Assembly: GCA_009914755.4 (NCBI GenBank)
Contig: CP068257.2
Coordinates: 25,888,001 to 25,952,000 of the forward strand
Source: the human T2T-CHM13v2.0 reference genome, Homo sapiens
Direction: 5' to 3'
Length of the DNA: 64,000 nucleotides
The position numbers and the translations under genes are program-made. Below are positions 51,136 through 52,681 of this stretch, piece by piece (the first letter of the stretch is position 1; the number at the start of each line of letters is the position of its first letter). The notes under the pieces are model-generated. The model had not been told where the DNA came from. It saw only the letters and a program-made list of their open reading frames with translations, and searched no databases.

Positions 51136-51351
51136 CATGGCATTAGCCACAGTGGCTGACAAATACTTTTAATGAAATGAAACTATATTTCTGACATGAA
51201 TCACACAGTGGTTATCTGATATTATTATAAGTTTACCACATCCATTAGATGAAATATGACCCATTCATTCTTTGGCTAAATGCACCATTCTTTGTCTATA
51301 GAGAAAATGTCATATCTGAAAGTTTCACGTCCTAGTTTACACCACTTGACT

Positions 51352-51962
51352 TTTTTTTTCCTTTCCAACTTTTATTTCTTTTTCTTGCCTTATTGTGCTT
51401 GTCTTGTTCGATTTTCTTTCTTTTTTTTTTATTATACTTTAAGTTCTAGGGTACATGTGCACATTGTGCAGGTTAGTTTACATGTGGATCCCTTCCTTAC
51501 ACCTTATACAAAAATCAATTCAAGATGGATTAAAGACTTAAACGTTAGAGCTAAAACCATAAAAACCCTAGAAGAAAACCTAGGCATTACCATTCAGGAC
51601 ATAGGCATGGGCAAGGACTTCATGTCTAAAACACCAAAAGCAATGGCAACAAAAGCCAAAATTGACAAATGGGATCTAATTAAACTAAAGAGCTTCTGCA
51701 CAGCAAAAGAAACTACCATCAGAATGAACAGGCAACCTACAAAATGGGAGAAAATTTTCACAACCTACTCATCTGACAAAGGGCTAATATCCAGAATCTA
51801 CAATGAACTCAAACAAATTTACAAGAAAAAAACAAACAACCCCATCAAAAAGTGGGCGAAGGACATGAACAGACACTTCTCAAAAGAAGACATTTATTCA
51901 GCCAAAAAACACATGAAAAAATGCTCATCATCACTGGCCATCAGAGAAATGCAAATCAAAAC
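51352..51962 (-). mobile_element. Young L1 (L1PA-type) insertion with 5' inversion (twin-priming structure), flanked by an 11-bp target-site duplication caccacttgac
   Basis: Top-strand order is: duplication (51341-51351), long impure T-rich tail (51352-51430), 57 bp of the L1 3' terminus in antisense (ttattatactttaagttctagggtacatgtgcacattgtgcaggttagtttacatgtg, 51431-51487), 475 bp of ORF2 in the opposite orientation (ggatcccttccttacaccttatacaaaaatcaattcaagatggattaaagacttaaacgtt ... atgcaaatcaaaaccac, 51488-51962), then the duplication again (51963-51973). The 230-aa ORF at 51280..51972 is an artefact reading through the tail into the ORF2 segment. Confidence 0.85.
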
Positions 51963-52681
51963 CACCACTTGACTTATAAATGACATTTTACTTAGTCGTG
52001 TTTATTGTGAGTCATCTATATCAAAGAACTATTGTTATAAGGTGTTTTACACATTCCTATCGCACGTAAAAAGAAGAAGTGGAGTTAGAATGCATTCCAT
52101 GAGTATGCCTCGCTTTTAAGTATGTAATTATGAGCTGCAAACCATGAAACACTGTCTATGACACATCTTTAATGATACATTTTCAGAGCAGTACATCATA
52201 GCAACTGTGAGAAGTTAAAGCTTTAAATGAAGTCAATTCTATAGGATTCTTCTTTATATTAGGCTTTGATTGTCAATCTATGTATGCAACTTAAATACTA
52301 TATATACATACATATAAAAACATACACCAACTATACAAATTAGAACATGTATATAAACTATATAACTGTATTTAGTATTAAAGTTATTTACACTTTGACA
52401 GCAAATTGTTTTTAAACATATGTGAGGTTATATCTGTTTCTTTGTATATTAATTAATATGTGTGTATAGATATATTATTTTAAAATACAGATATATATGT
52501 GTGTATATATTTTTTTCTTTAAATTTGGTTGGAAAAACTCTAGAAATATGTATTTTAAGATCAGAGCATAAAGAATTTCTATAATTTAAAATATTACAAA
52601 TAAATAGCATCTGTAGCTTTGCTGGATATGACTAAACATTTCAATAACTCTGTTTTTGTATGATTCTATAAAAAATAATTA

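What the first reader, a model, noticed from the sequence alone, without database searches (positions are those of the whole stretch)
51341..51973. L1 insertion with 5' inversion (twin-priming signature), 11-bp duplication and an unusually long impure tail
An about 80-bp T-rich tail is followed by 57 bp of L1 3' terminus (antisense on the top strand). This abuts, with no intervening sequence, a 475-bp ORF2 segment in the opposite orientation. The whole composite is bracketed by the direct repeat caccacttgac (51341-51351 and 51963-51973). A single duplication around both pieces argues for one retrotransposition event with 5' inversion rather than two independent insertions. The inverted piece derives from roughly 0.8 kb upstream of the direct piece in L1 coordinates, implying an internal deletion at the junction; this is larger than the typical twin-priming gap and worth verifying. 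The interrupted tail (tttctttc, cttgcc and similar) could reflect 3' transduction or post-insertion mutation.
Basis: seen in the sequence. Interest (0 to 1): 0.55.

Follow-up and report, generated by a model that had tools for sequence, protein, structure and literature searches.

The report
Inverted L1 insertion with short transduction
This is one ordinary LINE-1 jumping-gene insertion whose front part was copied in backwards (the known "twin-priming" outcome) and whose odd tail is probably a short stretch of DNA carried from the parent copy's neighbourhood; it is a clean textbook example, not a new phenomenon.

Summary
These are a 78-nt T-rich tail, the last 56 nt of an L1 3'UTR (antisense on the top strand), and directly abutting it a 481-nt L1 ORF2 piece in the opposite orientation (ORF2p residues 951-1109). 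The geometry is what twin priming predicts. The inverted piece comes from upstream of the direct piece. Its high-coordinate end touches the TSD far from the tail with 3 nt of microhomology (CAC). The inversion junction has 2 nt of microhomology (TG) and no filler. The internal L1 deletion is about 650 bp, not about 0.8 kb. That is far above reported medians (about 15 bp) but within the model. The "impure tail" is not a decayed poly(A). It is A10, then 61 nt of non-L1 sequence, then A7-9, with an AATAAA starting 17 nt before the terminal A-run. This is the layout of a short partnered 3' transduction. Neither the source locus nor an empty orthologous site could be searched with these tools. This is a known kind of event and of low interest.

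The parts
51340..51352 (.). Left copy of the target-site duplication, CACCACTTGACTT. Its 3' end (…CTT) is the inferred first-strand nick and primer.
   Evidence: family D4 shows two 100% identical copies spaced 623 nt apart. One search shows these are the only two occurrences in the window.
51353..51359 (-). Terminal A-run of the retrotransposed RNA. It is A7 on the bottom strand, or A9 if the two T's shared with the TSD are counted.
51360..51420 (-). 61-nt non-L1 core of the 'impure tail'. The bottom strand reads GAAAGAAAATCGAACAAGACAAGCACAATAAGGCAAGAAAAAGAAATAAAAGTTGGAAAGG. It is a candidate short 3' transduction.
   Evidence: composition is A36 G14 C6 T5, and 25 of 78 tail positions are non-A; all non-A positions lie in the core (P=5e-4 if scattered at random), and there is no other copy in the window; similarity to L1 is not above shuffles; no Rfam match.
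51371..51376 (-). AATAAA polyadenylation hexamer inside the core. Its first base lies 17 nt before the terminal A-run.
   Evidence: hexamer at tail position 55, A-run from position 72. A hexamer in the 10-30 nt window arises in 13% of composition-matched shuffles.
51421..51430 (-). Internal A10 run directly after the L1 3' end. It is inferred to be the source element's genomic poly(A) tail. The L1's own AATAAA spans 51428-51433.
51431..51486 (-). Non-inverted (poly(A)-primed) L1 piece, consisting of the last ~55 nt of the L1 3'UTR plus a 1-nt insertion.
   Evidence: One search aligns it plus/minus to neighbouring L1 positions 48897-48952. One search aligns it with four other L1 3' ends in the window.
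51485..51486 (.). Inversion junction. The 2 nt (TG on the top strand) match both L1 pieces (microhomology), with no filler.
   Evidence: the two alignments overlap at 51485-51489, and 51485-51486 match both references perfectly..
51485..51965 (+). Inverted (internally primed) L1 ORF2 piece. It covers ORF2 nt 2846-3326 (ORF2p residues ~949-1109). The frame is open, and there are 4 private substitutions in 481 nt.
   Evidence: PDB ORF2p 8sxt residues 951-1109, E=2.3e-96; 97.7% identity to 47763-48243, plus/plus..
51963..51965 (.). 5'-junction microhomology CAC. It is shared by the L1 sequence (…AAAACCAC) and the first 3 nt of the right TSD. It is the inferred annealing site of the second primer.
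   Evidence: L1 homology runs to 51965; the TSD starts at 51963.
51963..51975 (.). Right copy of the target-site duplication, CACCACTTGACTT.

Best explanation
This is one L1 (L1PA-type) retrotransposition event that was resolved by twin priming, using an RNA that probably carried a short 3' transduction.

Inferred sequence of events:
(a) A source L1 was transcribed through its own weak AATAAA. The transcript was polyadenylated 17 nt after a downstream AATAAA. This gave an RNA ending L1-3'UTR / A10 / 61 nt of flank / poly(A).
(b) ORF2p endonuclease nicked the window's top strand at 5'-…GACTT/ATAAAT.
(c) The T-ending 3'-OH primed on the poly(A). Reverse transcription copied only ~134 nt: the A-run, the 61-nt flank, the A10 and 56 nt of the L1 3'UTR.
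(d) The bottom strand was nicked 13 nt away. Its 3' end (…GTGGTG-3') annealed through its last 3 nt to CAC at ORF2 nt 3324-3326 of the RNA, about 650 nt upstream of where the first cDNA had stopped. A second reverse transcription copied 481 nt, back to ORF2 nt 2846.
(e) The two cDNA ends were joined at a 2-nt microhomology, and the 653 nt of uncopied RNA between them was lost.
(f) Fill-in synthesis produced the 13-bp TSD.

What is shown directly: the sequence architecture, the orientations, the L1 coordinates, the microhomologies and the TSD. What is inferred: the order of events and the transduction origin of the 61 nt.
For: The 13-nt perfect TSD sits exactly at the outer boundaries and occurs nowhere else in the window; chance is about 5e-7.

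The two L1 pieces are on opposite strands and abut without filler. The ORF2 piece corresponds to ORF2p residues 951-1109, so it lies upstream of the 3'UTR piece. Its L1 coordinates rise toward the TSD far from the tail, as twin priming requires.

There is 3-nt microhomology at the 5' junction and 2-nt at the inversion junction. Kojima 2010 (PMC2912911) reports that about 70% of 5'-inverted L1s have 2-5 bp of 5' microhomology, that TSD lengths peak at 14-16 bp, and that about 31% of human- and chimpanzee-specific L1s are 5'-inverted.

The flanks are unique sequence, and the ORF2 piece has no A-tail of its own.

For the tail: the L1 body carries only about 0.8% private substitutions (4 of 481), whereas 25 of 78 tail positions are non-A. 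P is 3e-19 at 3% per-site change and 1e-4 even at 15%. All non-A positions are confined between two pure A-runs (P=5e-4). AATAAA starts 17 nt before the terminal A-run. This matches published partnered transductions (PMC13009371): 71% are under 100 bp, 72% carry two poly(A) tracts, 79% have a polyadenylation signal 10-30 bp upstream, and the eight most active source elements listed there show 5' inversion rates of 21-46%.
Against: No orthologous empty site and no source locus could be examined. Scans of metagenome and prokaryote-genome collections for the core and for both flanks returned nothing, so both the single-event claim and the transduction claim rest on internal evidence only.

The internal deletion (653 nt) and the very short poly(A)-primed cDNA are quantitatively atypical. 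Reported median internal deletion is 14.5 bp, and the poly(dT)-primed product is usually about 2.6 times longer than the internally primed one (bioRxiv 10.1101/2024.08.27.596794). In another data set, 46% of cases have the two cDNA ends within 20 bp (PMC12016303).

The nick site ACTT/AT is only a partial match to TTTT/A.

The polyadenylation hexamer position alone is weak evidence, since it arises in 13% of shuffles. The 61-nt core is A/G-rich rather than obviously 'unique' sequence.
Confidence: 0.88

Rival explanations
1. Two independent insertions. A tiny 5'-truncated L1 (56 nt plus tail) and a separate ORF2 fragment landed next to each other in opposite orientations.
For: RepeatMasker-style annotation would list two L1 fragments. 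Nested and adjacent L1s are common in this window, for example the L1 cluster at 9.5-15.8 kb.
Against: Only one TSD pair exists, and it encloses both pieces. The ORF2 piece has no poly(A) and no TSD of its own, and it ends inside ORF2 directly against the TSD. The pieces abut with 2-nt overlap and no target sequence between them. The exact inverted-upstream geometry would have to be a coincidence.
Confidence: 0.03
2. A normal ~1.2-kb 5'-truncated L1 inserted here and was later rearranged by an in-place inversion plus a 653-bp deletion.
For: The L1 intervals involved (ORF2 nt 2846 to the 3' end) would form one contiguous 5'-truncated element.
Against: This needs one breakpoint exactly at the L1/TSD boundary, a simultaneous deletion, and chance microhomology between the TSD end and the L1 sequence at the new junction. 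Twin priming produces all of these in a single step.
Confidence: 0.03
3. Two-template variant. The second primer annealed to a different L1 RNA from the one primed at the poly(A), in the spirit of the 'dual priming' proposed by Meyer et al. 2010. The two pieces would then come from different source elements.
For: The unusually large 653-nt gap and the very short first cDNA are easier to picture if the two reverse transcriptions were not on the same molecule. PMC2837659 proposes two-RNA priming and could not distinguish it from twin-priming variants.
Against: Nothing in the sequence demands it. Both pieces carry older-than-L1HS character states. The second priming was internal, not on a poly(A) as in the published dual-priming model. 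L1 proteins preferentially mobilise their own encoding transcript, as stated in the abstract of PMC6789731 listed, and this favours a single RNA.
Confidence: 0.06
4. The tail is not a transduction. Three alternatives are grouped here: (i) a poly(A) tail that decayed or became a microsatellite after insertion; (ii) a second, very short retrocopy (61 nt plus A-run) that later inserted into the L1's poly(A); (iii) a template switch from the 3' end of another polyadenylated RNA onto the L1 RNA.
For: The core is 59% A with few T's. Poly(A) tracts are preferred L1 endonuclease targets and mutate quickly. The source locus was not found. The hexamer position has a 13% chance expectation.
Against: (i) Decay is rejected. 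The L1 body has about 0.8% private change against 32% non-A in the tail, and the non-A positions are confined between two intact A-runs. (ii) and (iii) each need an extra rare event. Short partnered transductions with exactly this layout are common (PMC13009371). There is no Rfam RNA in the core.
Confidence: 0.3

Closest known systems
Twin-priming 5'-inverted L1 insertions (Ostertag & Kazazian 2001; surveyed in Kojima 2010, PMC2912911)
   Same: A single TSD of typical length (13 nt) encloses the element, with the poly(A) at one end. The inverted segment comes from upstream L1 coordinates. There is 3-nt microhomology at the 5' junction and 2-nt at the inversion junction, no extra nucleotides, and an internal deletion at the inversion point.
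   Different: The internal deletion is about 650 bp, against reported medians of about 15 bp. The poly(A)-primed L1 part is only 56 nt, whereas this product is usually the longer of the two.
[quoted passage not shown] 2010, PMC2837659)
   Same: The first reverse transcription stops very early, the second primer anneals far upstream, and the result is a large inversion-deletion flanked by TSDs.
   Different: In those 39 loci the first cDNA never leaves the poly(A), so only a poly(T) stretch precedes a sense L1. Here the first cDNA also copied the 61-nt core, an A10 run and 56 nt of 3'UTR, so this locus is an intermediate case.
Short partnered L1 3' transductions (PMC13009371; exon-shuffling mechanism of Moran et al. 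1999, recalled from my own knowledge)
   Same: The layout is L1 3' end, short A-run, under 100 nt of non-L1 sequence, then a second A-run. An AATAAA lies 10-30 nt before the terminal A-run. These transductions often co-occur with 5' inversion.
   Different: The source locus has not been identified, and the transduced segment is A/G-rich. This is an old germline insertion: it shows L1PA-like states and is not L1HS.

Membership tests
L1 insertion by target-primed reverse transcription | Sequence homology to L1 | tested here: met
   ORF2p residues 951-1109 at E=2e-96. 97.7% nucleotide identity to another L1 copy in the window, and the 3'UTR end aligns to four other L1 3' ends.
L1 insertion by target-primed reverse transcription | Target-site duplication of about 7-20 bp flanking the whole insert | tested here: met
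   13-nt perfect repeat at 51340-51352 and 51963-51975. It is unique in the window, and the chance of this placement is about 5e-7.
L1 insertion by target-primed reverse transcription | Poly(A) tract at the 3' end, next to one TSD copy | tested here: met
   T7-9 at 51351/51353-51359 lies directly after the left TSD.
L1 insertion by target-primed reverse transcription | Endonuclease nick-site consensus 5'-TTTT/A | tested here: inconclusive
   The reconstructed empty site reads 5'-GACTT/ATAAAT, which has only two T's before the nick. PMC12016303 finds canonical motifs in only 63-70% of insertions.
Twin-priming (5'-inverted) L1 | Two segments of L1 in opposite orientation inside one TSD pair | tested here: met
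   Plus/plus and plus/minus alignments to the same + strand reference L1.
Twin-priming (5'-inverted) L1 | The inverted segment derives from L1 coordinates 5' of the non-inverted segment, and its 3'-most L1 base abuts the TSD far from the tail | tested here: met
   The inverted piece covers ORF2 nt 2846-3326, with coordinates rising toward the right TSD. The direct piece is the last ~55 nt of the 3'UTR.
Twin-priming (5'-inverted) L1 | Microhomology between the target overhang and L1 at the 5' junction, and between the two cDNAs at the inversion junction | tested here: met
   CAC (3 nt) at 51963-51965 and TG (2 nt) at 51485-51486. Expectations are taken from PMC2912911.
Twin-priming (5'-inverted) L1 | Internal deletion or duplication at the inversion point | tested here: met
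   A deletion of 653 nt on the neighbouring L1's ruler. Deletions occur in 66% of inverted insertions, but the median is 14.5 bp, so the size here is atypical.
Twin-priming (5'-inverted) L1 | Both segments arrived in one event (empty orthologous site) | not testable with these tools
   No primate genome is accessible. Scans for flank and core 24-26-mers returned 0 hits, and a look-up of the 230-aa ORF spanning the junctions found nothing.
Partnered L1 3' transduction | Non-L1 sequence between the L1 3' end and the terminal poly(A), usually with a second internal A-run | tested here: met
   The layout is A10 / 61 nt / A7-9. The core has no significant similarity to L1 or to anything else in the window.
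Partnered L1 3' transduction | Polyadenylation signal 10-30 nt upstream of the terminal poly(A) | tested here: met
   AATAAA at 51371-51376 (bottom strand), 17 nt before the A-run. Chance expectation is 13%.
Partnered L1 3' transduction | The same sequence lies immediately downstream of a progenitor L1 elsewhere in the genome | not testable with these tools
   There is no other copy in the window and there are 0 hits in the metagenome and prokaryote collections. No human or ape assembly is available.

The most novel reading that the evidence does not exclude
The most novel reading the evidence leaves open has two possible forms. In one, the two L1 pieces were copied from two different RNAs (a two-template priming event). 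In the other, the 61-nt core came from a template switch onto a non-L1 polyadenylated RNA rather than from the source element's flank. Either form would make this a three-part chimeric retrocopy, with the large 650-nt 'gap' as a by-product.
Probability: 0.1. Interest if true: 0.3.

Novelty: already known. Interest (0 to 1): 0.12.

Why it matters
The locus matters little beyond annotation. It shows that two adjacent, oppositely oriented L1 fragments and a 'low-complexity' stretch should be merged into one insertion event. It is also a clean example from the tail of the twin-priming distribution, with a very short poly(A)-primed cDNA and an internal deletion of about 650 nt. In this respect it bridges classical twin priming and the 'poly(T)-headed' L1s of Meyer et al. 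2010. If the 61-nt tag can be mapped, it would identify the progenitor L1 of an old (L1PA-age) insertion. That is useful for source-element genealogy but is not surprising.

Tried and rejected
(1) L1 origin of the tail core. The bottom-strand core translates to …[13 protein letters not shown] and aligns 24/29 to the ORF2 'TIRQEKEIK' region of the neighbouring L1 (46948-46976), with all five mismatches synonymous. This looked like a third L1 piece or a transduced old L1. However, dinucleotide shuffles of the core reach the same score against the in-window L1s in 41/300 trials and 97/300 trials with gapped scoring. The best gapped hit in the window lies elsewhere, at 59116-59173. I rejected this as chance similarity between A/G-rich sequences.

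(2) A shared tail with another L1 in the window. The BLAST extension into the tail of the L1 at 15680-15770 is only A/G-rich low complexity.

(3) Source locus or empty site in public collections. The core 24-mer and the left- and right-flank 24-26-mers gave 0 hits in metagenome contigs and genome contigs.

(4) Look-up of the 230-aa chimeric ORF (51280-51972), which spans flank, tail and both L1 pieces, in assembled public contigs: not on record.

(5) Small-RNA chimera (U6 or similar) in the tail: no Rfam match at E≤1 in 51250-52050.

(6) Flanks as part of an older repeat that could supply a paralogous 'empty site': both flanks are unique in the window.

(7) Per-insertion gap sizes from Additional Table S12 of PMC12016303: the supplementary spreadsheet is truncated in the library and I did not find that table's rows, so only summary figures were used.

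(8) The original papers by Ostertag & Kazazian 2001 and Szak 2002 are not held in the library.

Full report
OBSERVATION

A perfect direct repeat, CACCACTTGACTT, lies at 51340-51352 and 51963-51975. It is 13 nt long, not 11. The final TT is ambiguous between TSD and tail.

The 13-mer occurs nowhere else in the window on either strand. The probability of finding it at the two element boundaries, even allowing 49 offset combinations, is about 5e-7.

Four features lie between the two copies, listed here on the top strand:
- T7 (51353-51359).
- A 61-nt impure stretch (51360-51420).
- T10 (51421-51430).
- Two L1 pieces, described below.

IDENTITY AND ORIENTATION OF THE TWO L1 PIECES

BLAST of the composite against the window itself found a + strand L1 copy about 3 kb upstream (at least about 46.5-48.96 kb). 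I used it as a ruler.
- 51485-51965 aligns plus/plus to 47763-48243 at 97.7% identity.
- 51413-51489 aligns plus/minus to 48894-48968, which is the very end of that L1 and the start of its A-tail.

The pieces are therefore on opposite strands.

The frame-2 translation of the sense piece has no stop codon. It matches human LINE-1 ORF2p residues 951-1109 in PDB entries 8sxt and 8uw3 (E=2.3e-96, 151 of 159 residues identical). In ORF2 nucleotide numbering the piece covers 2846-3326.

The antisense piece is the last ~55 nt of the 3'UTR, with a 1-nt insertion.

On the ruler, the L1 interval missing between the pieces is 48244-48896, which is 653 nt. It comprises the last ~502 nt of ORF2 and the first ~150 nt of the 3'UTR.

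JUNCTIONS

The two alignments overlap in the window. 51485-51486 (TG) match both L1 pieces perfectly, which gives a 2-nt microhomology and no filler at the inversion junction.

At the other end, L1 homology runs to 51965 (…AAAACCAC), while the TSD starts at 51963. The 3 nt CAC are therefore shared between the L1 and the target.

L1 coordinates in the sense piece rise toward the right TSD, which is the TSD far from the tail. The ORF2 piece has no A-tract and no TSD of its own. Both flanks are unique within the window.

MECHANISM

This architecture is what twin priming predicts, as summarised in PMC2912911 and PMC2837659.
1. The top strand was nicked at 5'-…GACTT/ATAAAT, and its T-ending 3'-OH primed on the poly(A).
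2. The bottom strand was nicked 13 nt away. Its 3' end (…GTGGTG-3') annealed through GTG to CAC at ORF2 nt 3324-3326 of the RNA and primed a second cDNA back to ORF2 nt 2846.
3. The two cDNA ends were joined at the TG/CA microhomology.
4. The uncopied 653 nt of RNA was lost, and fill-in synthesis produced the 13-bp TSD.

Kojima 2010 reports about 31% of human- and chimpanzee-specific L1s as 5'-inverted. About 95% of these show 5'-junction microhomology, about 70% of them with 2-5 bp. TSD lengths peak at 14-16 bp, and extra nucleotides are rare. This locus is typical on every one of these counts.

It is atypical only in quantity:
- Internal deletions occur in 66% of inverted insertions, but the median is 14.5 bp (bioRxiv 10.1101/2024.08.27.596794).
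- The poly(dT)-primed cDNA is usually about 2.6 times longer than the internally primed one.
- 46% of cases have the two cDNA ends within 20 bp of each other (PMC12016303).

Here the poly(A)-primed cDNA holds only 56 nt of L1 (about 134 nt including the tail), against 481 nt for the inverted piece. Meyer et al. 2010 (PMC2837659) describe the extreme of this trend, with 39 loci where the first cDNA never leaves the poly(A). The present locus sits between that class and classical twin priming.

The nick site (ACTT/AT) is only a partial match to TTTT/A. That motif is found in only 63-70% of insertions anyway.

THE TAIL

Read on the bottom strand, the tail is A10-GAAAGAAAATCGAACAAGACAAGCACAATAAGGCAAGAAAAAGAAATAAAAGTTGGAAAGG-A7(9).

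Post-insertion decay of a poly(A) is rejected for two reasons:
- The ORF2 piece carries only 4 private substitutions in 481 nt (0.83%) relative to the other L1 copies in the window. In contrast, 25 of 78 tail positions are non-A. P is 3e-19 at 3% per-site change and 1e-4 even at 15%.
- All non-A positions lie between two intact A-runs (P=5e-4 if placed at random).

An AATAAA (51371-51376, bottom strand) starts 17 nt before the terminal A-run. On its own this is weak evidence, because it arises in 13% of shuffles.

The layout of L1 end, short A-run, under 100 nt of non-L1 sequence with a polyadenylation signal, then a second A-run matches a short partnered 3' transduction. In nanopore data, 71% of transductions are under 100 bp, 72% of partnered ones have two poly(A) tracts, and 79% have a polyadenylation signal 10-30 bp upstream. 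The eight most active source elements listed show 5' inversion rates of 21-46% (PMC13009371).

I rate transduction at about 0.65. The main alternatives are a second tiny retrocopy inserted into the A-tail, or a template switch from another polyadenylated RNA. The source locus could not be sought. There is no second copy in the window, no hit in the metagenome or prokaryote-genome collections, and no Rfam RNA in the region.

A LEAD THAT FAILED

The core translates to …[13 protein letters not shown] and aligns 24/29 with the ORF2 'TIRQEKEIK' segment, all mismatches being synonymous. That would have implied a third L1-derived piece. Dinucleotide shuffles reach the same score in 14% and 32% of trials, and the best hit in the window is elsewhere. 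I treat this as chance similarity between A/G-rich sequences.

AGE

Relative to L1HS ORF2p, the piece has 8 amino-acid differences. Four are private to this copy. Three more (M, A and K) were read off the alignment as also present in other L1 copies in the window. The eighth (R for K in 'NVR') is likewise shared, but only on a comparison with the L1HS coding sequence recalled from memory. The 3' piece has CCCTAGAAC where, from my own knowledge, L1HS has CCCTAAAAC, and the older copies in the window share the G.

With about 0.8% private divergence, this points to an L1PA2/L1PA3-like element a few to roughly 15 million years old. That age range rests on my own knowledge of subfamily ages and was not tested against consensus sequences, which were unavailable.

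WHAT COULD NOT BE DONE

The decisive tests are an empty or partial orthologous site and the source locus of the 61-nt tag. Both need primate genome assemblies, which these tools do not provide. All four allowed collection scans and an exact-protein look-up returned nothing.

VERDICT

The twin-priming interpretation is supported at about 0.88 confidence. The tail is best read as a short 3' transduction. This is a known kind of event, slightly unusual in the size of its internal deletion, and of low interest.

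Noticed in passing
window 46540-48968 (+ strand): A neighbouring L1PA-type copy that is 97.7% identical to the inverted piece. It carries an RVT_1 domain ORF (46609-47184) and a 578-aa ORF (47120-48856). The 578-aa ORF runs past the normal ORF2 stop (tga at 48744-48746), read as a 1-nt insertion/frameshift near the ORF2 end (hand count, not tool-checked). The 3'UTR has GACGAG rather than the Ta-type ACA. 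The A-tail is followed by GAAACACACC. I used this copy as the coordinate ruler. Its 5' end was not mapped.
   Followed up: partly
window 51035-51135: About 200 bp left of the insertion lies an (ATTTT)n-patterned T-rich tract (51035-51076). It is followed by about 55 nt that look like the 3' end of an antisense Alu (…ggtcttgctctgtagcacaggctggagtgcagggccatgatcatagc). This appears to be a severely 5'-truncated Alu with a patterned tail. The Alu motif occurs 15 times in the window, so the source is a primate genome.
   Followed up: partly
window 9500-15800: An L1-rich block holds at least three L1 copies of different ages on the + strand, at 71%, 84% and 96.5% identity to the 47-49 kb copy. Two L1 3' ends lie at 14034-14113 and 15680-15770. 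A (GTTT)n microsatellite sits at about 15803-15842. This looks like nested or serial insertions.
   Followed up: no
window 51280-51972 (+ strand): A 230-aa ATG-initiated ORF runs from the left flank through the TSD, the T-rich tail and the antisense 3'UTR piece into the ORF2 frame, and stops in the right TSD. It is an accidental read-through: T-rich sequence has few stops in this frame. There is no Pfam hit, and it is not on record as a called gene.
   Followed up: yes
window 62930-63669 (+ strand): Another older L1 3' fragment, about 85% identical to the 48 kb copy, with an impure A-rich tail (…TAAGAAAGTGAAAAAAAAAAGAGTTGGAA).
   Followed up: no
window 44318-45281 (- strand): Three overlapping ORFs of 150-192 aa on the minus strand just upstream of the neighbouring L1. 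None has a Pfam match, and their nature was not determined.
   Followed up: partly
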